Notes: generated from the letters alone by a model not told the origin. 27,420 nucleotides of DNA from an uncultured Candidatus Peribacteria bacterium (GCA_964421335.1 CAYQWU010000002.1:1-27420), one strand, 5' to 3'; positions 1 through 11,016 are shown, counted from the stretch's first letter. Translations and numbers: made by a program.

Positions 1-231
1 CATGATGTTCCTGGCCTCCTCTCGCGAATTACGCAGATTATTTACGATATGGGTATCAATATCATAGATTTGGCACTTGTGGCTCAGGATGACGGTACGA
101 CTCACCTCGGCGTGAGCATAGAGGCACCAGATGATGACGAGTCCCTCTTGGACCGTCTGATGGAGAGAATTCAGCTCCATATTCCGGAGTTTCTGATGCG
201 GGATGATGATTTTTTTGACAAGAGGAAATAA
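1..231 (+). CDS. 3' end of an ACT-domain protein, probably the RelA/SpoT (p)ppGpp synthetase/hydrolase (5'-truncated by window edge)
   Basis: Frame is open from base 1: HDVPGLLSRITQIIYDMGINIIDL... matches the ACT pattern D-x-P-G-L-L-x-x-I...G-I-N-I found at the C-terminus of long RSH proteins; TAA at 229-231. The RSH assignment is inference, since other proteins also end in ACT. Confidence 0.65.
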   Translation, partial: HDVPGLLSRITQIIYDMGINIIDLALVAQDDGTTHLGVSIEAPDDDESLLDRLMERIQLHIPEFLMRDDDFFDKRK

Positions 232-241
232 TCTATACAAT
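215..241 (+). promoter_or_regulatory. sigma70-type promoter for rpsU, TTGACA-N15-TACAAT
   Basis: TTGACA 215-220, 15-nt spacer, TACAAT 236-241, about 30 nt upstream of the rpsU ATG. Confidence 0.6.
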
Positions 242-272
242 TCAGGTACTTATTTATCAGTTATTAGACCAT

Positions 273-476
273 ATGGTTCGTTTTTACGCTACAAAGAAAG
301 AAGGAGAATCAAGCGACAAAATGCTCGTCCGATTCAAGAAACTCCTCTACGGTTCTCGTTTGATTACTGATCTCCGAGCTCGTCGTTATAACAAAAAAGA
401 TCCTACAAGACGCAAGGTTCGTGAACAGGCTATCGTGTGTTCTCGATACAGAGAGCTTTCTGATGAGCTTTCGTAA
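273..476 (+). CDS. rpsU: 30S ribosomal protein S21
   Basis: 67 aa, basic; KKEGESSDKMLVRFKK...LRARRYNKK pattern typical of bS21. Confidence 0.9.
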   Translation: MVRFYATKKEGESSDKMLVRFKKLLYGSRLITDLRARRYNKKDPTRRKVREQAIVCSRYRELSDELS

Positions 477-495
477 ATTTTGGTAAATCTAATTC

Positions 496-522
496 ATCCC
501 ACTCAATTGAGTGGGATTTTTC
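496..522 (+). terminator. Intrinsic terminator hairpin after rpsU
   Basis: Perfect 22-bp palindrome ATCCCACTCAA/TTGAGTGGGAT (496-517) followed by a T-run, 20 nt after the stop codon. Confidence 0.75.
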
Positions 523-572
523 TTGTTCCAAATGAAAACATATCTATACTACTTTCACTTAAATTCTGTCTT

Positions 573-773
573 ATGCTTACTTTTTGAATTGTTGCTCTTA
601 TTCTGGGCACAGCGATACTCTTTAATCCAGCGATTCTCGGTTTCCTCGTAGGCTTATTCCTCCTTATCCTCGGTTCATGGATAATTCTGGGGTGGTACAA
701 GGTCAATAAAATTCTTGAAAAGACTTATTCTATGTGAAAATATCAGATTATCTTTCAGAAAAAGAAAAAATAA
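573..773 (+). CDS. Small membrane protein (66 aa, two hydrophobic segments), missed by the ORF track
   Basis: With TGA=Gly: MLTFGIVALILGTAILFNPAILGFLVGLFLLILGSWIILGWYKVNKILEKTYSMGKYQIIFQKKKK*. Its TAA lies 2 nt before the next ATG, and TTGTTC-N16-TATACT lies upstream (523-550). Confidence 0.7.
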
Positions 774-775
774 TC

Positions 776-1516
776 ATGTATACGATTTTTGCACTTATAG
801 CCGCTTTTCTCGGCCTCGTTCTCTGGTCGTATATTGTCTCCTACATGATGTATGAGGGTGTAGACAGGCAGTTTATCCTCCGAGCTCGGCGAGGTATAGT
901 TCGCGGCATGGCTGTTGCTGGTATTTTTATCTTTGTCGAATACATCCCTGTATTGAGAGACTTTATACAGAGGGATTGGGTGTTGTTTCCTGCAATTTTT
1001 TTCATCATTTCTCTGCCTCTTTCATGGCAGAGAGTTGGTGGTGTGGCTCTTTTTCCACTTCTCATATCTTTGGTTGCCTGGTTTATACTCTCATTTTCTG
1101 GAGATTCGTTTATTTCATTCCTCTGGTCCCCATTTCATGAAGAAATAGGGAAGTGGTACCAATCCGTCACCTTGAGTTATCCGGCTATTATGAGTCCTTT
1201 TGTGAGCCTCGGATTTGGTTTTCTCGAAAACTTCCGTTATTTTTCCGTCGATCTCACTCTCACCCAGATTTTGGGCCGTACGGTCTTTTCTTTGCCTCTC
1301 CATATCTTTGTGGGCCTTTTTGCATTCTGGGTCCTTCTTTCATCGCGTAATCGTACTGTAGGAGCCGTACTGGGGCTTGTAGCGGCTATTACCTTCCACT
1401 CCGTCTATAACTGGTCTCTAGATATATCGCTCATCCTCACACTCTTCCTCATTATCCTCGGATATATGTTTTATGGCTGGAGTCTGGAGAATGGTTGGTG
1501 GAAGAAAAGTCTCTAA
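776..1516 (+). CDS. PrsW-family intramembrane glutamic/metalloprotease
   Basis: Multi-pass hydrophobic protein with the PrsW motifs EExxK (HEEIGK), FGFLEN, a conserved His (SLPLH) and HxxxN (HSVYN). ATG at 776 is preferred over the GTG at 734. Confidence 0.85.
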   Translation: MYTIFALIAAFLGLVLWSYIVSYMMYEGVDRQFILRARRGIVRGMAVAGIFIFVEYIPVLRDFIQRDWVLFPAIFFIISLPLSWQRVGGVALFPLLISLVAWFILSFSGDSFISFLWSPFHEEIGKWYQSVTLSYPAIMSPFVSLGFGFLENFRYFSVDLTLTQILGRTVFSLPLHIFVGLFAFWVLLSSRNRTVGAVLGLVAAITFHSVYNWSLDISLILTLFLIILGYMFYGWSLENGWWKKSL

Positions 1517-1522
1517 AAAATT

Positions 1523-1550
1523 AAAAAATCCTCTCGAGAGAGGATTTTTT
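1523..1550. terminator. Bidirectional intrinsic terminator between convergent genes
   Basis: AAAAAATCCTCTC-GA-GAGAGGATTTTTT inverted repeat with A and T tails on either side. Confidence 0.8.
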
Positions 1551-1559
1551 AGATTTGTT

Positions 1560-2036
1560 CTATTTTTCTTCAGGTTTTTCCCAACCGAATTTTGGATCTA
1601 GTATAAAATTACCATGATCATCTACTTCTTCAACTAAATTTCACGCCAAAACTTGAGGATTAAGTGACCACAATAGGCCTCCTCCTGGTATAAAAATTCA
1701 TATGTCCTTTCATGATTCAGTTCATGATTCTGATTTTCATGACTCTAGGAGCGCATCTATTCTCATATTTAGTAGAGTCTCTCGGGCTTTTTGTGTGTCA
1801 ATTGTGTCATTTAGAACACTATTCTCTTCCTCTAACATAAAAATTTCGGATTCGAGTTCTAATGTATCTGTGTTTACAGCATTTGGAATTTCACTAGAGG
1901 CTGCTGATTCTTTATCTGCTTTTGGCAAAAGTGACCCAATAGATATGCATACCATACCTACAAGCAACAGACAACCGCGATTGGCTTTTTTATTGATTCT
2001 TTGTTGTGTAATTATATCAGGTGTACTTTCGCCCAT
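1560..2036 (-). CDS. Hypothetical protein (158 aa), N-terminal membrane anchor plus short coiled coil
   Basis: Track ORF 1737-2036 reads through TGA(Gly) to TAG at 1562-1560; C-terminus ...GIFIPGGGLLWSLNPQVLAGNLVEEVDDHGNFILDPKFGWEKPEEK*. Confidence 0.7.
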
Positions 2037-2065
2037 AATTCACTATTAAAATTTATATACGAATT

Positions 2066-2092
2066 ACTATATATTATTTATATATTTGTCAA
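2066..2092 (-). promoter_or_regulatory. Promoter TTGACA-N15-TATAGT for the 1560-2036 gene
   Basis: The minus strand reads TTGACA aatatataaataata TATAGT. The region is AT-rich, so other -10 choices are possible. Confidence 0.45.
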
Positions 2093-2098
2093 ATTAAT

Positions 2099-3643
2099 TT
2101 ATACCTTTTTCAGTGCTTCGATTTCTCCTTTTATCCTGTCTACTTCTTTTGTACTTCCAGTATCTGTCGCGAGCCACCTATTATAGAGATCGATAGCGAT
2201 AGCTTCTCTCGTTTTATCACCCAGTACACCTGCAGATGAAGAGGTGAGACTGTCGATGACCTTGAGATCGAGTTGGTATTTTGCGAGAGCACCCTTGGTT
2301 ATCTCACCAAATATCGCTGTATCCTTGACTGTCATATAACCGAGTTCTTTGAGTTTCTTTTGGAGTGTTCGGATTTCTGGGTGGACTTGCCCTATTTTGG
2401 CTGTTGGGATCTTTTTCAGGATGTTCACGAATTCGAGTTTTTTCTTATCCCGGAGAGCATTGAGAGTTGCCTGTGCTTCGCTCAGTGATACTTCGAGGTT
2501 TGCGATTTCCCCCTTTCTCGCTGTGTATGAAGCGTATGATTCAGAGAGTGCACTCTTTGTGACAGGTCCATAGTATCCAGCTCCTGGATCTTCTTCTCCA
2601 GTGACGATTTTCTTCGCGAGTTGAAATGCGTAGAGCGCATCGACGAGTCGCTTGTTATATATTCCGTCGATATCATATTTGAAATATCCGAGATCCTTTA
2701 GTTGATTCTGGAGTTCTCGGACATCACCGAGCTCAGTAGTATTTTGTTCTGGAGTGAGATTTGTTGTTGGTGTAGGGACGCTGTTATCTGTTGTAGGAGT
2801 TGTGACTGTTGTATTTACGGCAGTGGTATTGGTGGTCTTATTGAGTTCACCTGAGACGAGAGCTTTGAGCATAGCACGAGTTTTTGGTCCATAAGTACCA
2901 GCTCCGTCATCTGTTTTTTCTTTCACTATACCGTTTGCTTTCTGGAAACGGAATATCGCATCTGTGAGAGTATCATTATAGAGACCATTGATAGCTCCTG
3001 TGTAGATATTGACTCGAGTGAGGAGTTTCTGGACCGTCTGGATGTCCTCGACCGCACTTCCTGAGCCGATAGGCATAGTAAATGGATCAAATGCCTTCTT
3101 GATACCAGAAGAGAGGGGGACTGTTTCAGTATTTGGATTGCTACAATTTCCTGGCATCGTGTCAAAAGAGCTCGTGTCAGCAATAACAGAATTATTATCA
3201 AATTCTACATAAACTGTCTGAACACCAAAGTTGATAGCGCGACAGAGTCATTCTTGTCATTTTCCCATGTAGATATCGAGACGGGGGAGCTTCGAAGCTG
3301 AGTGTATAGCACCACCACGGTCGAGGATAGTTCCGTGAAAATCAAAATCATAGGCAGTTCACCTGATAGTGATATTTTGTTTGATGTGAACACGAGTATT
3401 GTATGGCCATTCTCGGGGTGCTGCTATTGCGCCTATTCTGACTGGTTGTCCTGATGCTGTTGTTTTACCTGCTCCGTTCATCTTTACTTCATCTGCGTAG
3501 CTCCCATGGAGATAGAAGTCTTGTCATTCGAGTGGTGAATAGTACGCTGAGACGAGATAGTATCATCCTTCAGCATGAGCTGTTAGGGGTATGAGCTGTG
3601 CTGAGAGTGCCAGGAGTGCCAAGAGGCTAGTTATACGACGCAT
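2099..3643 (-). CDS. Secreted 3D (Asp-Asp-Asp)-domain protein with about three peptidoglycan-binding (PG_binding_1-like) repeats; putative lytic transglycosylase (514 aa)
   Basis: With TGA=Gly the track ORF extends to ATG 3643: signal peptide MRRITSLLALLALSAQLIPLTAHA, then TTASG...GAIAAP...DRGGAI...LDIYMG...AINFG (3D domain), then repeats of the type VQ-x-x-L...G-x-Y...A-x-x-x-FQ...G-x-Y-G-P-x-T. Confidence 0.85.
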
Positions 3644-3664
3644 AAAAAAGAAAATTATGCTCAC

Positions 3665-3691
3665 ATTGTATCCTCTGAGAAAAGATGGCAA
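3665..3691 (-). promoter_or_regulatory. Promoter TTGCCA-N15-TACAAT for the 3D-domain gene
   Basis: Plus-strand tggcaa 3686-3691 and attgta 3665-3670 are separated by 15 nt, 21 nt upstream of the ATG. Confidence 0.55.
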
Positions 3692-3777
3692 CCCAAAAGT
3701 TATTGACATCAAAAACCTCGTCCAGGAGAGTCTTCTGGATAGCTTGCAAACTCTCCTCTCCTTCGTAGACTCATAAA

Positions 3778-4140
3778 ATGACAGGATTTAATAATCGTTC
3801 TCGAGGTGATGTGGGTGAAGATCTCGCCGTAGAATATCTCACCCATCATGGATATGAGGTGGTGGAGAGAAATGCGACATTTCTCGGAGGAGAACTGGAT
3901 ATCATCTGTAAAAAAGGTGAGTTCTGGAGATTTGTAGAAGTGAAGTATCGTGAGAGCACTGTATTTGGTTATCCAGAGGACTCTATGACGCCCAAGAAAA
4001 TCAAGACCCTTCTCCGAGCCATAGAATTCTATTGTTTGAAGAATGGTATAGACTACTCACAGACGCGACTCGACTTTCTCGGCATACTTCTCTTGCCTAC
4101 GAGGGAGTACGAATACAGACTTGTAGAAGATGTGAACTAA
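3778..4140 (+). CDS. yraN: YraN/UPF0102-family PD-(D/E)XK nuclease-like protein
   Basis: G-x-x-GEDLA-x-x-YL...GY-x-x-x-ERN...GELDII...FVEVKYR motifs. TTGCAA-N16-TAGACT ends 6 nt before the ATG. Confidence 0.9.
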   Translation: MTGFNNRSRGDVGEDLAVEYLTHHGYEVVERNATFLGGELDIICKKGEFWRFVEVKYRESTVFGYPEDSMTPKKIKTLLRAIEFYCLKNGIDYSQTRLDFLGILLLPTREYEYRLVEDVN

Positions 4141-4592
4141 CTAGATAGAGAAATAGGTAGAGCTAGAGGGCGGATTTTTTATAATAGTACTATGCAATTT
4201 TACTTTCAAACATTAGTAGTCTGGCAAAAAGCCTTCGAACTCACAAAGCATGTGTATTCTCTTCTTGAATTTTTCCCAAAACAGGAACAGTTCGCTCTTA
4301 CTGATCAAATGAGGCGTTCTGCTGTATCTGTCATGAGTAATATTGCCGAATGAAGCGGACGGTCTTCCACTGCAGATAAAAATCATTTCTACACAATGGC
4401 CAAATGATCAGCTATGGAGCTCGCATCTCAGATTTTACTTGCTAGAGATATTTGATATATTACTGACACAGAGGAATCGGATATCTGTCTCTGACTTATC
4501 GAGGAGGTAATGAAGATGACCTATTCCATGACTCAAAAATAATATAATTAGTCCGCCCTCTACCTCTTTCTCTACCTTTTACCTATCTATTA
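4138..4592. repeat. Imperfect inverted repeats enclosing the four-helix-bundle gene
   Basis: Left arm 4138-4174 (taactagatagagaaataggtagagctagagggcgga) pairs with right arm 4552-4592 (tccgccctctacctctttctctaccttttacctatctatta). There is a perfect 11-bp core TAGAGGGCGGA/TCCGCCCTCTA plus matching AGGTAGAG and TAGATAG blocks. Confidence 0.75.
4192..4542 (+). CDS. Four-helix-bundle protein (TIGR02436, '23S rRNA IVP' family), missed by the ORF track
   Basis: With TGA=Gly: [57 protein letters not shown]...[24 protein letters not shown]..., carrying the family signature QxRRxAxSxxxNIAEG. Four in-frame TGA codons. Confidence 0.92.
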
Positions 4593-5242
4593 TGAAACTC
4601 TTCCTCGATTCAGCTGATCTATCGCTCATCACACAGTATTCTGAATACGGTATTGTCGATGGTGTGACTACCAATCCTACAATAATTGCCAAAGAATGAG
4701 CAGATCAAGCAACGCGCATTCGTGAAATTGCTGCCATTATCTCTTGACCTGTGAGTTGTGAGGTGACCACCCTGACAGCAGAGGAAATGATAGAACAAGG
4801 GCGTGAATTTGCATCTTGGGGTGATAATATCTATGTGAAACTTCCGATAATTCCTGAGGGGTTAAAAGCATTGAAAGTCCTCGCTGCAGAGTGAATCCCG
4901 ACGAATATGACACTGTGTTTTTCTGTGACGCAGGCCTGGGTAGTGGCAAAACTCGGCGCAACACTCGTGAGTCCGTTCGTTGGTCGTCTCGATGATCGTG
5001 GAGAGGATGGCGTGAAACTCGTCGAGGATATCGTCAATCTCTATCGTCTTCATGGCTACGAGACAGCTGTTCTCGCTGCGAGTATTCGTTCAGTCGACCA
5101 TATTCGCCGTTGTGCACTCGTCGGCGCAGATATAGTCACGCTTCCTCCGAAACTCATCGATGAGATGCTCCAGCATGATCTCACTGATACTGGACTTGCT
5201 AAATTCATGGAAGACTTTCAGGCTTCACAAAAGAATAAATAA
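4592..5242 (+). CDS. tal: Transaldolase / fructose-6-phosphate aldolase (TalC family, 216 aa)
   Basis: MKLFLDSAD...GVTTNPT...KEG(TGA)...VKLP Schiff-base Lys...NMTLCFS...[10 protein letters not shown]...AASIRS. Confidence 0.93.
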
Positions 5243-5253
5243 AAAGAAAGGAT

Positions 5254-6081
5254 ATGACGACTTTTTCTCAAACTTCTGACCCAGTTGAACTCTCAAAAAT
5301 AGCTCACCAGCTCCGTCTCGATGTTCTCGAGATGCTTCACCTCGCTGGCTCGGGTCACATAGGATGACCTTTTGGTATGGCGGATATTTTTGCAGCACTG
5401 TATTTCTCTTTCCTCAATACTACTCCAGAAAATCCTACTAACCCAGACAGAGATTATTGTCTCCTCTCAAATGGCCATATCTGTCCGATTTATTATGCTA
5501 CGCTCGCTCGACGCGGTTTCTTCCCGGTTGAAGAACTGCAACACCTTCGAAAGATTGATTCACTCCTGCAATGACATCCGAAACTCGGTATTCCTGGCGT
5601 TGAGAACTCTTCGTGACCTCTTGGTCATGGACTTTCTCAGGCGGTGTGAATTGCCTTGACGCTCAAGATGGATGGCAAGAAAAATCGTGTAGTCTGCTGT
5701 ATGTCTGATGGTGAGCATCAGGAGTGACAGACATGGGAAGCGGTGATGTCCGCTCATAAATGGAATCTCAGCAATCTCATCGCTATCATGGATTATAATA
5801 ATCTCCAGATCGAGTGAACAACTGATGAGATAATGCCTCTCGGGAATCTCGCTGAGAAATACAGAGCATTTGGTTGGGAAGTGAAGGAAATAGACGGACA
5901 TAATTTTACCGAAATATTGGAGGCATTAGACTCGGCAGATGCAGCTGAAAAACCCACCATGATTGTCGCGAAGACGACACTCGGAAAATGAGTCTCATTT
6001 ATGGAAAATAATTGGGCGTACCATGACTGGGCAGGGAAGCCTGGTGATTACGAGAAAGCCTTGGCAGAACTTTCAAAATAA
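5254..6081 (+). CDS. tkt: Transketolase, N-terminal (TPP-binding) subunit (275 aa)
   Basis: AGSGHIGG, LSNGH, LQGHP, GPLGHGLSQAVG, SDGEHQEG-x-TWEA...DYNNLQ (TPP motif) and KTTLGKG; several of these conserved Gly are TGA. Confidence 0.93.
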
Positions 6082-6156
6082 AAAGAGAGGGGATTCTCCC
6101 GAAAATTGTCCATAGACCAAGACTGTCGATTTTTCCAAAATATATACAATTGTGAC

Positions 6157-7122
6157 ATGAAAAAATTCCTCATCTTTTCACTTTTCACTTTTCACTTTTC
6201 ACTGATCGGGGCATTTGCCTTTACTCCTTCTGCTGACTTTGTCGCCTATGCGGACAAGCTCGGTGGTCAGATGGGCACGCTTTTTGCTCGTATGTCGCCT
6301 GAGGAGAAAACAAGCGTCATCACTAATCTGAATACCAGACTCGTACAACTCCAGAATAATCTCATCGGATTGAGTGATCCGAAGATGCTCAATCGTCTCT
6401 ACCTGATACAATATCTCGCGAGAAATATTCCTGGTCTTGAATCATTTGAACAAGAGGATGTCATCTATGATGAACTGACTTCGACCATATGGACTCATGC
6501 AAAAAATGGTTTTGATCTCCTCTATCAGCCATTTAATACACCGCGGTTTGAGTCACATGACAGTGCCAAAAAATACCGCGCACTCGTGAACGGTGGCTAT
6601 TTCAATAAAATCGACGGCTCCATCTATCATGCTGGACTTCTCGCTCTGGATGGACAGCGATATACTCCTCCTGTGTTTGATAATTCTCAGGTGACGCATT
6701 TCCTGTGTCAGGATAGTCACTGAATCCGTATCATGCCAAATGTCGACTACCACGAATCTCTCATAGATTCTTGCGATGTCCTCTTCCAGGCTGGGCCAGT
6801 TATCTATTCCAAAAGAGGAGATCTTATCGAAGAAGACTTGAGACCAGCCTCATATATAGGGAAAGCTCATAAGCGAACAGCCCTCGTTCTCTTCGAAAAA
6901 GCTGGCGTCCAGGATGTGTGGTTTCTGACTATCAATGAGGAAGAAACACTGACAGAGGTGAGGAATATAGTTCTCCGAGAAATGCGATTTATTGGTGCAT
7001 ACGATACGGTACAAATCCTCAATCTCGATGGCGGGAGCTCAGTTGCTCATGTGAATTACGCCCATCCGGAACTCAATATTGGCAGGACAAAGATTCTGCC
7101 TATAGTATTGGGTATTAAATAA
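6157..7122 (+). CDS. Secreted phosphodiester glycosidase-family (NAGPA-like) protein (321 aa)
   Basis: Track ORFs 6106-6723 and 6733-7122 fuse through TGA. Signal peptide MKKFLIFSLF..., then NGGYF, QAGP, RTAL and LNLDGGSS family motifs. Confidence 0.8.
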
Positions 7123-7131
7123 TTTTATTTT

Positions 7132-8097
7132 ATGTTATTGTCCAACTGGTCCGACGAAACCTCTCTGACAAAAAAATCCATCCGTGCTGGATGGGGTGAG
7201 GGAATTGTCCAACTCGCTCGTCGGAATTCAGATGTTGTCGTCCTCAATGCTGACCTCCCATGATCCCTCAAGCTTGAAGGATTTATCCATGAATTTCCAG
7301 AGCGGTATTTCCAGGTCGGTGTCGCAGAGCAGAATATGGCGGGTATCGCTACTGGTATGGCCCATGCAGGGAAGATTCCATTTATTACTTCATTTGCTGC
7401 GTTTAGTCCGGGACTGAATTTCAGCCAGATTCGACTTGCAGCGATGTCGCACCTCCCACTCAAGGTCGTCGGAAGTCACTATGGTCTCAATGTCGGTCCA
7501 GATGGTGCGAGCGCTCAGATGGAGAGCGATATTGCTATGATGCGTGCACTTCCTGGCGTACGCGTCTTGTCTCCTGCTGATTATAACCAAGCAATACAGA
7601 TGGTTGCTGCGATGGCAGATGGCGAAGGTGTCGACTATATCCGTGTGACGCGTGCTGATTTTCCAGTATTTCTCGATGACACACCGATAGAGATCGGCAA
7701 AGCTCAGAAACTTCTCGACGGGACGGATGTGACCATTATCGCGACTGGCTCCATGGTCTACGAAGCCCTTCAAGTCGCTCAATCATTTGTCGCGACAGGG
7801 AAGTCAGTTGATTTCCTCAATATTCACACGATAAAACCGCTCGATAGTGAGAGTATTATTACTTCAGCACAGAAGACTGGTAAGGTCGTCGTCATAGAAG
7901 AACACAATGTCCACTGAGGACTCGGAGATGCGGTCGCTTCCGCTCTTTCTGAGCACTGCCCAACTCGACTCTTGAAGATAGGAATTGCTGATATATTTGC
8001 TGAATCGGGGACACATCGTGAGCTCTGGATGAAGTATTGACTTGATAGGAAAGTCATGTTCCCAAAAATTGAAACCTGGATAAACCAAATTTGATAG
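7132..8097 (+). CDS. tkt: Transketolase, C-terminal (pyrimidine-binding plus C-domain) subunit (321 aa)
   Basis: ADL-x-GS, GVAEQNM, GPDGASAQ, TIKPLD, EEH...GGLG motifs. The gene ends TGA(Gly)-TAG at 8092-8097. Confidence 0.92.
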
Positions 8098-8140
8098 AGC
8101 ACTCTCTTGCATTTTATACTGTATCCTTATTATAAGATTT

Positions 8141-8641
8141 ATGCTTCGTACTATCGCCTACATCATATTTTTGTGCACAGGAATTTTTGCGTTTTTCCTT
8201 ATCGTCCTCTTTTTCCGCTCTCAAGATGGCGTAGTAAATACCTCTACAGATACACCTTCTCGACGCCCGATTATCAGTACCAGCGTCAATGATAAAGTCC
8301 TCTCAAAGGTAGAAAAAGCTTATGAATTCCGTAAATCGACTCAAGATGATATTTTTGGGGCATTTATATTTACCTTTCCAGTAGAGATTACCGTCGCAGA
8401 TCGCATCCGTATGTATGTATTTGAAAATGACTATGCCCTCATTCGTCGTAATCTCCTCCTCCTTTCCAATCTCTATGATTTCCAGGATACGACTGATTTC
8501 TTTGGTAAGACGATGTTTCTCAATGATAAAACTGGTGACGGGCAGATAGTGAGATTTATTACTGAAATTGAAGGACACGCTGTCGGCTTTGAAGTCCTCC
8601 GGGATGAGTATGGTGACCTCAAGAGTTTGCTTTTGCAATAA
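8141..8641 (+). CDS. Hypothetical protein with an N-terminal membrane anchor (166 aa)
   Basis: Clean ATG-to-TAA ORF with host-like codon use. TTGCAT-N15-TATTAT (8107-8133) ends 7 nt before the ATG. Confidence 0.75.
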   Translation: MLRTIAYIIFLCTGIFAFFLIVLFFRSQDGVVNTSTDTPSRRPIISTSVNDKVLSKVEKAYEFRKSTQDDIFGAFIFTFPVEITVADRIRMYVFENDYALIRRNLLLLSNLYDFQDTTDFFGKTMFLNDKTGDGQIVRFITEIEGHAVGFEVLRDEYGDLKSLLLQ

Positions 8642-8653
8642 TTTTTCTATACT
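8627..8653 (+). promoter_or_regulatory. Candidate greA promoter TTGCTT-N15-TATACT
   Basis: Hexamers at 8627-8632 and 8648-8653. A second TATAAT lies at 8659-8664. Confidence 0.4.
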
Positions 8654-8683
8654 TCCTCTATAATTACTCTCTATTTTTCCACT

Positions 8684-9166
8684 ATGGCAAAGAAATATCA
8701 GCTTACCAATGAAGGTCTCGAAAAGCTCCACCTCGAACTCGATGATCTGCGTAATGTAAAACGCGTCGAAATCGCTGAAAAGCTCAAGGTCGCTATCGGA
8801 TACTGAGATCTCTCAGAAAACTCTGAATATCAGTCAGCTCGAGATGAGCAGGCAGCTGTAGAGCTCCGTATCTCTGAGATCGAAGAAATCATGGAAAACT
8901 ATGAAATCCTCGATATGGATAAGAAGGCAAAGAAGAATAATGTGATCACTATCGGTAGCAAATTCACACTCAAGATGGGAACAGAGAAGAATTCTCCAGT
9001 TCAAGAATATATCATCGTCGGTAGTACAGAAGCTGATATCCTCGAGAATCGTATCTCAAATGAATCACCACTCGGACAGGCTGTCATGGGTAAGGCTGAA
9101 GGAGAAATGGCAGAAGGTGTTGCTCGTGCAGGGAAGTTTTCTTATAAAATCATGGAGATAGCCTAG
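8684..9166 (+). CDS. greA: Transcription elongation factor GreA (160 aa)
   Basis: LT-x-EG-x-EKL..., G(TGA)DLSENSEY-x-x-AR-x-EQ, IVGS-x-EAD...ISNESPLG-x-A. Confidence 0.95.
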
Positions 9167-9178
9167 TATACTATTTTT

Positions 9179-9589
9179 ATGAATTACTTTTTCGCTCAAC
9201 ATATCATCCTCATACCACTTGCTGCGTATATCGTTGCAACACTTTTGAAATGATTATTTTTGTGGAGGAAAAATCGATTCCATCTCCAGTCTATGCTCTC
9301 TACAGGAGGTATGCCGTCTGGGCACTCAGCGCTCGTCGCGAGTCTCGCAACGGCTATCGGTATCAAATACGGTCCATTGCATGATCTCTTCGTCCTCGCT
9401 CTCGTCTTCGCAGCTATCGTCATCTACGACGCGATGAATATCCGCTACCAATCAGGTCTTCACGCTCACGCACTCAATAAAATAAAAGGAGAAAAACAAC
9501 TCAATGAATCTCTCGGACACCTCCCATCAGAGACTCTCGTCGGTAGCATGATCGGTGTGTTGGTTGCGGCAGTTTTGATGCAGATTTAG
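9179..9589 (+). CDS. Divergent PAP2 family (DUF212/YuiD-like) membrane protein
   Basis: STGGMPSGHSA, IVIYDA and LNESLGH-x-P-x-E motifs. The start extends to ATG 9179 through a TGA. Confidence 0.9.
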
Positions 9590-10257
9590 AGTAATTTTAT
9601 TTTTGATTCTAATCCATCCCACTCGTCTGAAGTGGTCTTTCTTTTAAAAGGGTTTTCTATTCACAATTGCTCGGTTGTGTACCCAGCCTTTCCATAATTA
9701 CAACTTGCACAAGAAGTCACTAGATTTTCTGGTAGTGTTTTTCATCATAAATTCCAGGGAATTACATGGTCTGCAACGGGCCATGTCAGATGAATAATTC
9801 CGTGTGTGTCTAGATTTGTAGATCAACGCTTGAAAGAGTCAGAATTTATTTTCTTTGAAAAAATTTTCAGGAATTTTTGGGATATAATTCTGCTACCACA
9901 GTAACGACATCTGTATCAATCTCTTAGAAATACTTCTTTTTCATATTTCTTTGGCGAACGAAGGGTATCTCTTTTATCTATATCTATTATTTTTGGTGAC
10001 TGGATTTTGAGGATATTATTTCTGTGCCAGCCAGACATTTGCCCGTGCTCTATATACCATGTTTGAATCTCATTATTCCTTAATTTCTCTATTTTCTCTG
10101 TAGCAGATATTTTATCTCACTGAATAAAGTCGTTAAGAGCATCTATAAATATATCTATTTGCTCGTTCATCCATCCTGGTTGTCGCAGTGGACAGTATAA
10201 ATCCCATTTTGAACTATCTTTATCTAATGCTGAACAGCAATCTTTTCCTCTGCACAT
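9586..10257 (-). CDS. HNH endonuclease (223 aa), missed by the ORF track
   Basis: With TGA=Gly: ...VFLRDGYRCRYCG...VADHVIPWNLGGKTLPENLVTSCASCNYGK...EWDGL...*. Two CxxC pairs plus DH...N...N; six in-frame TGA codons. Confidence 0.9.
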
Positions 10258-10260
10258 AAT

Positions 10261-10893
10261 TTATTTTAATATCCCCTCAATCTCACCCCACACGGCTTCC
10301 CGAGGTTGTTCGCCGTTTATTGTGTAGTATTCGACTCCGTCGGCTTTCCAGCTCTCGAGGAGGGGGACTATGTCCGTGCGGTACCATGCGAATCGTTTGT
10401 GGATTTTCTCTACATCAGTGTCATCGACTCGTATCACGAGCTTATTGCCTGTTCCAGGATTGGTATCTCCTTCGAAATCACTTCCAAATATCTCTTTTGT
10501 GACGGGATCCATCTTGCGACCTTGGAGTCTTCGTAATGCCTCTTCTTCCGTCAGCGTGAGGTGTATGACGCAGTAATCAGTCGTGATAGCATCGAAAAAC
10601 TCTCTTTGAGCGATATTTCGGACTGCTCCGTCGATGAGGATGCGGTCGTCGGGGTGACTTTCGACGAATTCTTTTATCAGGTCAAAAATGACAGAATCGG
10701 GTGTCATGATACCATGAGGGACAGTATCTGCGACTGCTTGGTAGTGACGATGTGCGGTATTTTCGAGGACAGAGCGGAGTATAGCGCCTGTTTCGAGGCT
10801 GATATAGCCGTAGTTTTTGTTGATGAGAGCTGCTTGTGTGCCCTTACCAGAGCCCTGGATGCCCATGAGCATGATGTGTTTTTTTGTGGTCAT
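10261..10893 (-). CDS. adk: Adenylate kinase
   Basis: P-loop GIQGSGKGTQA, ETGAILR, LIDGAVRN and a LID region ending IRVDD. Confidence 0.92.
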   Translation of the reverse strand: MTTKKHIMLMGIQGSGKGTQAALINKNYGYISLETGAILRSVLENTAHRHYQAVADTVPHGIMTPDSVIFDLIKEFVESHPDDRILIDGAVRNIAQREFFDAITTDYCVIHLTLTEEEALRRLQGRKMDPVTKEIFGSDFEGDTNPGTGNKLVIRVDDTDVEKIHKRFAWYRTDIVPLLESWKADGVEYYTINGEQPREAVWGEIEGILK

Positions 10894-10916
10894 ATGCAGG
10901 GAAGTATAGCTGGCAA

Positions 10917-10944
10917 ATAAAAAATCAAAAATAAAAAATCAAAA
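10917..10944. repeat. 14-bp tandem direct repeat (ATAAAAAATCAAAA x2) in the divergent adk/rplU intergenic region
   Basis: Exact copies at 10917-10930 and 10931-10944. Confidence 0.6.
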
Positions 10945-10989
10945 AACCTCATCCAAATCATGTTTTCTGTACTTTTAGAGTATAAAAAC

Positions 10990-11016
10990 TTGCCAGATTA
11001 AAAAAATATATACAAT
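10990..11016 (+). promoter_or_regulatory. rplU promoter TTGCCA-N15-TACAAT
   Basis: Hexamers at 10990-10995 and 11011-11016, 21 nt upstream of the ATG. Confidence 0.6.

What the first reader, a model, noticed from the sequence alone, without database searches (positions are those of the whole stretch)
215..11016. Promoters repeatedly show a 15-bp -35/-10 spacer instead of about 17 bp
Six intergenic regions carry TTGnnn-N15-TAnnnT: rpsU TTGACA/TACAAT (215-241), TTGACA/TATAGT (2092-2066, minus), TTGCCA/TACAAT (3691-3665, minus), TTGCAT/TATTAT (8107-8133), greA TTGCTT/TATACT (8627-8653) and rplU TTGCCA/TACAAT (10990-11016). Two more are N16 (523-550, 3744-3771), and I saw no good N17 match. The best matches precede ribosomal-protein genes, where strong promoters are expected. 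E. coli/Bacillus-type sigma70 prefers 17+/-1 bp, so this may reflect a lineage-specific sigma-4/beta-flap geometry. I know of no description of this but cannot check the literature.
Basis: partly seen in the sequence, partly recalled or inferred. Interest (0 to 1): 0.75.

Follow-up and report, generated by a model that had tools for sequence, protein, structure and literature searches.

The report
Short-spacer housekeeping promoters in Gracilibacteria
In this tiny uncultured Gracilibacteria bacterium the two boxes of ordinary gene promoters usually lie 15-16 bases apart instead of the near-universal 17, a shift shared in graded form by its relatives and not described before as far as I could find.

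Summary
Observation confirmed. All eight sites are at the stated coordinates, upstream of genes in sense orientation.

The window alone is weak evidence. The loose N15 pattern occurs 20 times against 16.3 expected.

The genome is decisive. In 424 upstream regions, TTGnnn-N15-TAnnnT occurs 102 times against 23.4 in shuffles (z 17). N16 gives 72 and N17 gives 61, while N14 and N18 sit at background. A mixture model gives N15 122, N16 76, N17 22.

Without any -35 seed, TTG 21 nt before the -10 box is the top trimer/offset cell (43 vs 3.9).

The same pipeline gives mode 17 in Bacilli, Saccharibacteria and three of four standard-code Gracilibacteria-class genomes (the fourth tied 16/17). It gives mostly 16 in other TGA-recoded relatives and 15 in this genus.

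- The rplU promoter keeps N15 in 19 of 19 genus genomes.
- A -10 box exactly 6 nt before the start codon in 77 of 412 genes (leaderless mRNAs) fixes the -10 register.
- The N17 promoters that remain mostly carry an extended -10 TG (17 of 61 vs 3 of 174).

The proposed sigma/flap indels are absent. The mechanism is still inferred.

This scan earlier noted N15 promoters on other DNA: a phage and another CPR genome.

The parts
215..241 (+). Promoter upstream of the S21-like gene (273-476): TTGACA-N15-TACAAT. The -10 ends 31 nt before the ATG.
   Evidence: literal match. (13.8 bits). (Ribosomal_S21, E 5.5e-4, below Pfam cut-off).
2066..2092 (-). Promoter of the 158-aa ORF (2036-1560, minus strand): TTGACA-N15-TATAGT. 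The -10 ends 29 nt before the ATG.
   Evidence: 11.8 bits. (gene call). (no Pfam family).
3665..3691 (-). Promoter of the peptidoglycan-binding-domain protein gene (3643-2099, minus strand): TTGCCA-N15-TACAAT.
   Evidence: 14.4 bits. (PG_binding_1, E 1.2e-24).
3744..3771 (+). Leaderless-type promoter of the UPF0102/YraN gene: TTGCAA-N16-TAGACT. The -10 ends exactly 6 nt before ATG 3778.
   Evidence: 13.2 bits. (UPF0102, E 7.6e-22).
523..550 (+). Weakest candidate: TTGTTC-N16-TATACT, 22 nt before a 66-aa DUF3096-like ORF (573-773).
   Evidence: 9.4 bits, about the 95th percentile, 9.57 bits, of best-site scores in shuffled 90-nt tRNA-upstream regions. (DUF3096, E 0.0086, below cut-off).
8107..8133 (+). 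TTGCAT-N15-TATTAT. The -10 ends 7 nt before ATG 8141 (leaderless type). Ambiguous, because an N18 pair at 8091-8120 scores slightly higher.
   Evidence: 12.0 bits against 12.7 bits for the N18 alternative.
8627..8653 (+). greA promoter: TTGCTT-N15-TATACT. The -10 ends 30 nt before ATG 8684.
   Evidence: 12.9 bits. (GreA_GreB_N, E 8e-23).
10990..11016 (+). rplU (L21) promoter: TTGCCA-N15-TACAAT. The -10 ends 21 nt before ATG 11038.
   Evidence: 14.4 bits. (Ribosomal_L21p, E 6.7e-27). TTGC[C/T/G/A]A-N15-TACAAT is kept in 19 of 19 genomes of the genus, while the sequence further upstream is unalignable.

Best explanation
These are the ordinary housekeeping (primary-sigma, sigma-70-type) promoters of a TGA-recoded Gracilibacteria genus. 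The preferred distance between the -35 box (TTG[A/C][A/C][A/T]) and the -10 box (TA[t][a][a/c]T) has moved from 17 bp to 15-16 bp.

Shown:
- The boxes, their spacing distribution (15 > 16 > 17, with none at 14 or 18) and their sense-oriented position before genes and tRNAs.
- Conservation of the N15 architecture at an orthologous promoter.
- The graded phylogenetic pattern: 17 in outgroups, about 16 in other recoded relatives, 15 in this genus.
- The canonical -10 register, with the start codon of leaderless genes 7 nt after the -10.

Also shown: canonical N17 persists only as a minority class that carries an extended -10 TG.

Inferred: the RNA polymerase holoenzyme of this clade docks sigma region 4 one to two base pairs closer to sigma region 2 when region 3.0 is not anchored on a TG. 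This would come from substitutions or accessory parts, not from indels in sigma or the flap. The only structural correlate I found is an N-terminal extension of beta-prime just before the zipper and zinc-binding domain. It is about 25 aa in the order and gains about 60 further acidic aa in this genus.
For: Genome-wide counts in 424 upstream regions:
- N15 102 against 23.4 in shuffles (z 17).
- N16 72 (z 10.9).
- N17 61 (z 8.1).
- N14 24 (z 0.1) and N18 22 (z -0.2).
- Antisense strands of co-directional gaps and coding DNA show no peak.

Mixture model with a flat spacer prior over 10-22: N15 122.3, N16 76.3, N17 22.4, all others below 6.

Seed-free test: TTG 21 nt before TA[TC]A[AC]T is the top of 64 x 27 trimer/offset cells, 43 against 3.9, z 20.

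tRNA genes, which are independent of my gene caller: 10 of 16 have a site of at least 10.1 bits (95th percentile of shuffles is 9.6). Five have spacer 15, five have spacer 16, none has 17.

Orthologous rplU promoter: N15 in 19 of 19 genus genomes.

TSS ruler:
- TAnnnT ends exactly 6 nt before the start codon in 77 of 412 genes, against a background of about 17.
- Position -1 is a pyrimidine in 73 of 77.
- The 6-nt distance does not change with spacer length.

Same pipeline on other genomes, mixture-model expected counts:
- Bacilli pool: N17 37.7, N16 14.4.
- Saccharibacteria pool: N17 37.0.
- Standard-code class members: G058 N17 56; G032 N17 34; G045 N17 35 and N16 20; G053 N16 33 and N17 31.5.
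- Recoded f13: N16 51 and 68.5.
- G027: N16 35, N15 18.
- G021: N16 50.
- G028: N16 55.
- G014, same genus: N15 54, N16 44.5.

TG dependence: 17 of 61 N17 sites carry TG, against 2 of 102 N15 and 1 of 72 N16 sites (Fisher odds ratio 22, p 1e-8). The pattern recurs in most relatives.

Beta-prime N-terminal extension.

Papers (passages seen):
- The beta-prime zipper contacts the promoter spacer (PMC3173786; abstract start in the search listing).
Against: - There are no transcription-start data for this organism or any relative. The TSS ruler is indirect and depends on my own gene and start calls.
- No indel distinguishes sigma regions 2-4, the RpoB flap, or the beta-prime zipper and zinc-binding domain from N17-type relatives, so no structural cause is demonstrated.
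- The beta-prime extension does not track the spacer cleanly. The f13 genomes have mode 16 without any extension. The f3 genome G020 has the 25-aa extension but mode 17.
- The gradient is not clean either. G020 is 17 > 16 > 18, G022 is 16 = 17, and the standard-code G053 is 16 = 17.
- The regex N17 count is inflated, because TATACT read two bases later gives a second match. Conversely, in the strict leaderless subset N17 (11) is nearly as frequent as N15 (14).
- G000 itself lacks rpoB and rpoC and has only a truncated primary rpoD in the assembly. All polymerase comparisons therefore use genus relatives.
- Most relatives were sampled by 200 kb only. The Bacilli and Saccharibacteria pools are related rpoD-flanking regions, not independent genomes.
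Confidence: 0.6

Rival explanations
1. Canonical polymerase with drifted promoters. The RNA polymerase still prefers 17 bp. In these small-population, reduced genomes, deletion bias and weak selection for promoter strength let spacers pile up at the lower end of the tolerated 15-19 window.
For: - The distribution is cut off sharply at 14 and decreases from 15 to 17, as a pile-up at a lower limit would look.
- N17 still works in this genome when TG is present.
- Sigma, the flap and the zipper show no indel.
Against: - The f13 genomes have a sharp mode at 16 (78-85% of calls) with essentially no 15. That is an optimum, not a pile-up at a limit of 15.
- Equally small standard-code Gracilibacteria-class genomes and Saccharibacteria keep 17.
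- The presumably strongest promoters (tRNA, rplU) are N15 or N16.
- N18 is absent although E. coli tolerates it.
Confidence: 0.13
2. DNA topology. The chromosome of this clade is less negatively supercoiled. That raises the twist per base pair and so favours shorter spacers with an unchanged polymerase.
For: Forquet et al. [quoted passage not shown]
Against: - gyrA is present in 30 of 31 relatives searched, including both pieces in G000, so the simple no-gyrase version fails.
- By my own estimate, not computed here, full relaxation changes the twist over a 17-bp spacer by less than one base-pair step, while the shift here is about 1.5-2 bp.
- It does not explain why TG promoters stay at N17 in the same cell.
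Confidence: 0.08
3. Two sigma factors. The RpoD orthologue reads only the canonical TG-N17 minority. One of the RpoD-like paralogues, or another sigma, has taken over housekeeping with N15 and N16 promoters.
For: - The genus has three RpoD-like genes (G000: C34, and two on C18; G014: three).
- Two promoter architectures coexist.
Against: - G027, G021 and G028 show the same two architectures (mode 16 plus TG-N17) with only one RpoD-like gene at E <= 1e-60.
- The -35 and -10 hexamers of the N15 and N16 classes are the canonical primary-sigma boxes, and the orthologue's 4.2 helix is intact.
Confidence: 0.1
4. Chance or method artefact. AT-rich intergenic DNA gives many TTG...TAnnnT pairs, and the N15 excess comes from composition, seeding or miscalled genes.
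For: - At window level the loose pattern is not enriched.
- The mixture model needs a -35 seed. Without one it drifted to an A-rich block.
- The E. coli control gave no usable signal.
Against: - z 17 against dinucleotide shuffles, with no peak on antisense or coding DNA.
- The seed-free trimer scan puts TTG at N15 first.
- tRNA promoters are independent of my gene calls.
- N15 is conserved in 19 of 19 genus genomes.
- The same pipeline returns 17 in six outgroup samples; a seventh, G053, is tied 16/17.
Confidence: 0.02

Closest known systems
Canonical primary-sigma (sigma-70 / sigma-A) promoters, TTGACA-N17(+/-1)-TATAAT
   Same: - The same two hexamers, with invariant A2 and T6 of the -10 box.
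- The same -10-to-start distance, inferred from the leaderless start-codon ruler.
- The same conserved sigma 4.2 helix in the genus RpoD.
- They sit before housekeeping genes and tRNAs.
   Different: - The spacer mode is 15, then 16. N17 is about 10% by the model, or about 23% of the regex excess, and N18 is absent.
- In the papers I saw, the spacer is 17 in every genome tested, or predominantly 17 across species.
Extended -10 (TGnTATAAT) promoters
   Same: A minority class here has TG two and three bases before the -10 box together with a -35 box (17 sites). These sites keep the canonical 17-bp spacer.
   Different: - The majority N15 and N16 class is depleted of TG: 3 of 174 against a background of 5.5%.
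- That TG promoters lean to longer spacers in E. coli is recalled by me (Mitchell et al. 2003) and was not checked here.
Bacteroidetes sigma-AB promoters (-33 TTTG / -7 TAnnTTTG)
   Same: - A whole lineage whose primary promoters depart from the E. coli layout.
- The motifs are cited in PMC2483708 (passage seen).
- Shine-Dalgarno-poor leaders, by my reading of the window only.
   Different: - Here the -10 is an ordinary TAnnnT with no TTTG extension; the logos show no conservation after the hexamer.
- The sigma is a normal collinear RpoD.
- The exact Bacteroidetes spacing (TTG-N19-TA) is recalled, not checked.
Alternative sigma factors with short spacers (sigma-28/FliA at N15, sigma-32 at N13-15); recalled, not checked here
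   Same: A spacer of about 15 bp is physically workable for sigma-70-family holoenzymes.
   Different: Those have different box sequences, shortened or divergent sigma regions, and specialised regulons. Here the boxes are the housekeeping ones and serve tRNA and ribosomal-protein genes.
Leaderless-gene genomes ('group C' of GeneMarkS-2, PMC6028130; -10 box next to ORFs in Deinococcus-Thermus, PMC12340547; both seen only as search listings with abstract starts)
   Same: A -10 box at a fixed short distance before the start codon in many genes: 77 of 412 at exactly 6 nt.
   Different: Here most leaderless promoters also carry a clear -35 box at N15-17. I found no report for Gracilibacteria; no listed paper holds 'Patescibacteria'.

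Membership tests
Sigma-70-type (group 1 sigma) bipartite promoter | -35 hexamer resembling TTGACA | tested here: met
   Mixture-model PWM: T .95, T .90, G .87, A/C, A/C, A/T. The seed-free trimer scan gives TTG, flanked by C before and C/A after.
Sigma-70-type (group 1 sigma) bipartite promoter | -10 hexamer resembling TATAAT, with A at position 2 and T at position 6 | tested here: met
   Mixture-model PWM: T .93, A .99, t .65, a .67, a/c, T .95.
Sigma-70-type (group 1 sigma) bipartite promoter | Spacer of 17 +/- 1 bp with mode 17 | tested here: not met
   Mode 15. Model fractions are N15 0.54, N16 0.33, N17 0.10, N18 0.00, with a mean of 15.58. Regex excess over shuffles is about 79, 49 and 38 for N15, N16 and N17.
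Sigma-70-type (group 1 sigma) bipartite promoter | Sense-oriented position upstream of genes, enriched over background | tested here: met
   z 17 against shuffles. In co-directional gaps the sense strand has 42 N15 matches against 15 on the antisense strand. Coding DNA scaled to the same length gives 7-14. 10 of 16 tRNAs have a site.
Sigma-70-type (group 1 sigma) bipartite promoter | Transcription starts 6-8 nt after the -10 hexamer | tested here: inconclusive
   Only indirect evidence. The start codon lies exactly 6 nt after TAnnnT in 77 of 412 genes, and a pyrimidine sits at -1 in 73 of 77. No RNA data are available.
Sigma-70-type (group 1 sigma) bipartite promoter | A primary sigma with conserved regions 2.4 and 4.2 is encoded | tested here: met
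   The RpoD of genus relatives is collinear with E. coli over regions 2-4, and the 4.2 helix is conserved. G000's own copy is cut off by a contig end (C34:5-481).
Extended -10 promoter | TG at the second and third base before the -10 hexamer | tested here: not met
   Not met for the N15 and N16 sites of the finding. Genome-wide, TG occurs in 2 of 102 N15 and 1 of 72 N16 sites. It is met only by the N17 minority, 17 of 61.
Bacteroidetes -33/-7 promoter | -7 motif TAnnTTTG | tested here: not met
   Logos aligned on the -10 show no conserved TTTG after TAnn. Positions +6 to +21 have an information content of at most 0.3 bit in the N15 and N16 classes.

The most novel reading that the evidence does not exclude
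The RNA polymerase holoenzyme of TGA-recoded Gracilibacteria has been re-tuned in steps (17 to 16 to 15 bp). In this genus sigma region 4 would dock about two base pairs closer to region 2 unless region 3.0 is held by an extended -10 TG. This would be the first natural primary-sigma system whose optimum is not 17. The lineage-specific N-terminal extension of beta-prime next to the zipper and zinc-binding domain is a candidate cause.
Probability: 0.45. Interest if true: 0.85.

Novelty: new variant of a known kind. Interest (0 to 1): 0.72.

Why it matters
- **Challenge to a constant.** The 17-bp spacer is treated as a near-constant of bacterial transcription, because it mirrors the fixed distance between sigma regions 2 and 4 on the core enzyme. 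A 2026 preprint states that it 'holds across the bacterial domain', after searching only 16-18 bp. A clade whose housekeeping promoters centre on 15-16 bp shows that this geometry can evolve.
- **A natural series for experiments.** The clade offers a 17/16/15 series for structural and biochemical dissection, with TG-dependent N17 promoters as an internal contrast.
- **Practical consequences.** Promoter finders restricted to 16-18 bp will miss most promoters of these organisms. The built-in scan found no excess in the window. Genetic tools for these host-dependent CPR bacteria will need native-style N15 or N16, often leaderless, promoters.

Tried and rejected
- **E. coli K-12 as positive control** (400 kb). 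The regex gave 15 and 14 at N16 and N17 against about 10.7 expected, and the mixture model diverged. It was too weak to serve as a control, so I replaced it with the Bacilli/Clostridia and Saccharibacteria pools.
- **Mixture model without a -35 seed**. It converged on an A-rich block. I replaced it with the seed-free trimer/offset scan.
- **Anchoring on every TAnnnT** (885 anchors). The signal was too diluted.
- **G023** (GC 56%). No promoter signal. **G022.** The model diverged at the default seed strength and converged only with a stronger seed.
- **No-gyrase hypothesis.** gyrA was found in 30 of 31 relatives.
- **Indels in RpoD regions 2-4, the RpoB flap, or the beta-prime zipper and zinc-binding domain.** None found.
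- **Compensation between spacer and the -10-to-ATG distance.** None; the distance is 6 nt for all spacers.
- **rplU promoter in two f2 genomes** (G027, G021). No strong site within 110 nt, so no orthologous comparison was possible outside the genus.
- **G000's own rpoB and rpoC.** Not in the assembly.
They may show whether Patescibacteria stood out. Its main text does not contain 'Patescibacteria' or 'Gracilibacteria'.

Full report
**What the window is.** The window is the whole of contig C2 of a 790-kb, 110-contig assembly with 42.5% G+C. Completeness is 74.8%. Genes are interrupted by TGA under table 11 and read through under table 25. The closest relatives found through RpoD carry titles such as 'Candidatus Gracilibacteria' or 'Candidatus Peribacteria' MAG. 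I called genes with a codon log-likelihood caller of my own, using TAA and TAG as stops. It gave 695 genes.

**The sites in the window.**
- All eight sites are present exactly as described.
- With position weight matrices (PWMs) learned from the whole genome they score 9.4-14.4 bits.
- Each lies before a gene on the same strand: S21-like (weak Pfam match), a 158-aa ORF, a PG-binding protein, UPF0102/YraN, a 166-aa ORF, GreA, L21 and a small DUF3096-like ORF.
- By itself the window proves little. The loose N15 pattern has 20 matches against 16.3 expected and N17 has 13 against 15.6.
- At 10 bits or more there are 7 N15 hits against 3.5 in shuffles, and 1 N17 hit against 3.3.
- In the 13 oriented upstream regions of my gene set, N15 is 4 against 0.50.
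- The tool's standard 16-18 bp scan finds no excess, 27 against 26.9.
- The site before the gene at 8141 is ambiguous, because an N18 alternative scores slightly higher.

**The genome.**
- In 424 upstream regions (up to 150 nt, gaps of at least 40 nt), TTGnnn-N(s)-TAnnnT peaks at s = 15 (102 against 23.4, z 17). It is also high at 16 (72, z 10.9) and 17 (61, z 8.1), and is at background at 14 and 18.
- Antisense strands and coding DNA show no peak.
- A two-block mixture model with a flat prior over spacers 10-22 gives -35 TTG[A/C][A/C][A/T] and -10 TA[t][a][a/c]T. Its expected counts are N15 122, N16 76 and N17 22, with under 6 for every other spacer.
- The model needs a -35 seed. Unseeded, it drifted to an A-rich block.
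- A seed-free scan of all 64 trimers at 27 offsets before TA[TC]A[AC]T puts TTG at 21 nt (= N15) first, 43 against 3.9, z 20. TTG at 22 nt (z 9.3) follows, behind two trimers that overlap the N15 word.
- Of 16 tRNA genes found by ARAGORN, 10 have a site above the 95th percentile of shuffles. Five are N15, five are N16 and none is N17.

**Register of the -10 box.**
- TAnnnT ends exactly 6 nt before the predicted start codon in 77 of 412 genes, against about 17 at neighbouring offsets.
- The base before the ATG is a pyrimidine in 73 of these 77.
- This is the signature of leaderless mRNAs that start at the A of the ATG, seven bases after the -10, which is the canonical distance.
- The distance stays at 6 whatever the spacer, so it is the -35 box that has moved.
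- A second group of promoters has leaders of about 15-28 nt.

**Conservation.** Upstream of rplU, 19 of 19 genomes of the genus (L21 74-100% identical) keep AAAAC-TTGC[C/T/G/A]A-N15-TACAAT. The DNA further upstream cannot be aligned, and the leader length varies from 21 to 32 nt.

**Controls and phylogenetic spread.** The same pipeline gave these results:

| Sample | Result (mixture-model expected counts unless stated) |
|---|---|
| Bacilli/Clostridia pool | N17 37.7, N16 14.4 |
| Saccharibacteria pool | N17 37.0 |
| G058 (standard code) | N17 56 |
| G032 (standard code) | N17 34 |
| G045 (standard code) | N17 35, N16 20 |
| G053 (standard code) | N16 33, N17 31.5 |
| G085, G055 (f13, TGA-recoded, another order) | sharp N16: 51 and 68.5; almost no 15 |
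| G027 (same order) | N16 35, N15 18 |
| G021 (same order) | N16 50 |
| G028 (same order) | N16 55 |
| G022 (same order) | N16 26, N17 26 |
| G020 (same order) | N17 30.5, N16 22, N18 15 |
| G023 (same order) | no signal |
| G014 (same genus, complete genome, 400 kb) | N15 54, N16 44.5, N17 11 |

- Mean spacers run from 15.6 in the genus, through 15.75-16.6 in other recoded genomes, to 16.5-16.9 in the outgroups.
- The means do not follow G+C, which ranges from 25% to 47% across the samples.
- E. coli was unusable as a control.

**Two architectures.**
- In G000, TG at the extended -10 position occurs in 17 of 61 N17 matches, 2 of 102 N15 matches and 1 of 72 N16 matches, against a background of 5.5% (Fisher odds ratio 22, p 1e-8).
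- With TG the spacer histogram has a single peak at 17. Without TG it peaks at 15 and 16.
- Some of the N17 matches without TG are N15 TATACT boxes read two bases later.
- The link between TG and N17 recurs in G014, G021, G028, G022, G020, the standard-code genomes and both outgroup pools. The f13 genomes have no TG at all.
- The polymerase therefore still uses the canonical distance when region 3.0 can hold a TG, and a shorter one when it cannot.
- G027, G021 and G028 show both classes with a single RpoD-like gene. This argues against two sigmas as the explanation.

**Search for a cause.**
- RpoD regions 2-4 of the genus are collinear with E. coli, Bacilli and the N17 relatives, and the 4.2 helix is conserved.
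  - The f13 RpoD has a one-residue deletion in region 4 and a charged C-terminal tail.
  - Saccharibacteria have a 3-4 residue insertion in region 3.2.
- The RpoB flap and flap tip are collinear in all. So are the beta-prime zipper and zinc-binding domain.
- The order has an N-terminal beta-prime extension of about 25 aa before the zipper.
  - The genus adds about 60 acidic residues with a conserved EPDFF...FLGDDNMNPYLTDEMTD block.
  - This block is found in five independent protein clusters at 80-95% identity.
- The zipper is reported to contact the spacer (PMC3173786; abstract start). An appendage there is therefore a plausible but unproven modifier, and it does not explain f13.
- gyrA is present in 30 of 31 relatives. 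A topology effect in the right direction is published (PMC9303308), but it seems too small and does not explain the TG class.

**Literature.**
- A search for Gracilibacteria with promoter terms found one unrelated paper holding all terms.
- Broad promoter surveys state that 17 bp predominates across species (PMC12641261).
- The ProFinder preprint reports a median of 17 in all 49 genomes of its TSS panel and 99.2% of promoters within 16-18.
- I saw passages only, and the supplements were closed.
- Earlier notes of this scan record N15 promoters in a phage and in another CPR genome. I did not test those.

**Verdict.**
- It is lineage-specific and graded.
- The proposed sigma/flap indel is not there.
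- The most likely reading is a re-tuned holoenzyme-promoter geometry. The main rival is drift towards the lower tolerance limit.

Noticed in passing
Genome-wide; in the window, 3744-3780 and 8107-8143: About one in five genes with an upstream gap (77 of 412) has a -10 box exactly 6 nt before the start codon, with a pyrimidine at -1. This points to widespread leaderless mRNAs. G014 shows the same pattern (30 of 211). More distant relatives show it weakly or not at all.
   Followed up: partly
L248:3380-3997 (G014 rpoC 5' end); proteins P0001-P0005: Beta-prime of the order has an N-terminal extension of about 25 aa before the zipper. The genus adds about 60 acidic residues with a conserved EPDFF...FLGDDNMNPYLTDEMTD block. 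It is absent in f13 and in a standard-code class member.
   Followed up: partly
L036:11472-12527 (minus strand, G014); G000:C49:3196-3417: A conserved protein of about 351 aa has an N-terminal sigma-70 region 4 domain (E 1.1e-11) and a HARE-HTH domain, but no region 2. A region-4-only match with an open frame of about 350-400 aa occurs in most relatives searched. It could be a factor that docks on the flap or on -35-like DNA.
   Followed up: partly
G000:C18:5238-5927, G000:C18:8422-9123, G000:C34:5-481: The genus carries two extra RpoD-like sigma genes beside the primary one, and G014 also has three. G000's primary rpoD is cut by a contig end.
   Followed up: no
L236, L243 (RpoD of f13 genomes G085 and G055): The second TGA-recoded family has a very divergent RpoD. 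It is about 40% identical to the genus, with a one-residue deletion in region 4 and a charged C-terminal tail of about 55 aa. Its promoters have a sharp N16 spacer and no extended -10 TG.
   Followed up: partly
window 496-517, 1521-1552, 9619-9635: Terminator-like hairpins are enriched in the first 12 kb (20 against 7.9 in shuffles). They include one right after the S21-like gene and a two-way hairpin between convergent genes at 1521-1552.
   Followed up: no
window 9590-10260: My gene caller placed no confident gene here, although table 25 leaves a 223-aa minus-strand frame open (9586-10257, with 6 TGA). It may be a fast-evolving or decayed gene.
   Followed up: no
window 10903-10928 (minus strand): The best candidate promoter for adk is TTGATT-N14-TATACT (12.3 bits), ending 9 nt before the ATG. 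N14 is otherwise at background genome-wide, so this start or this promoter may be mis-assigned.
   Followed up: no
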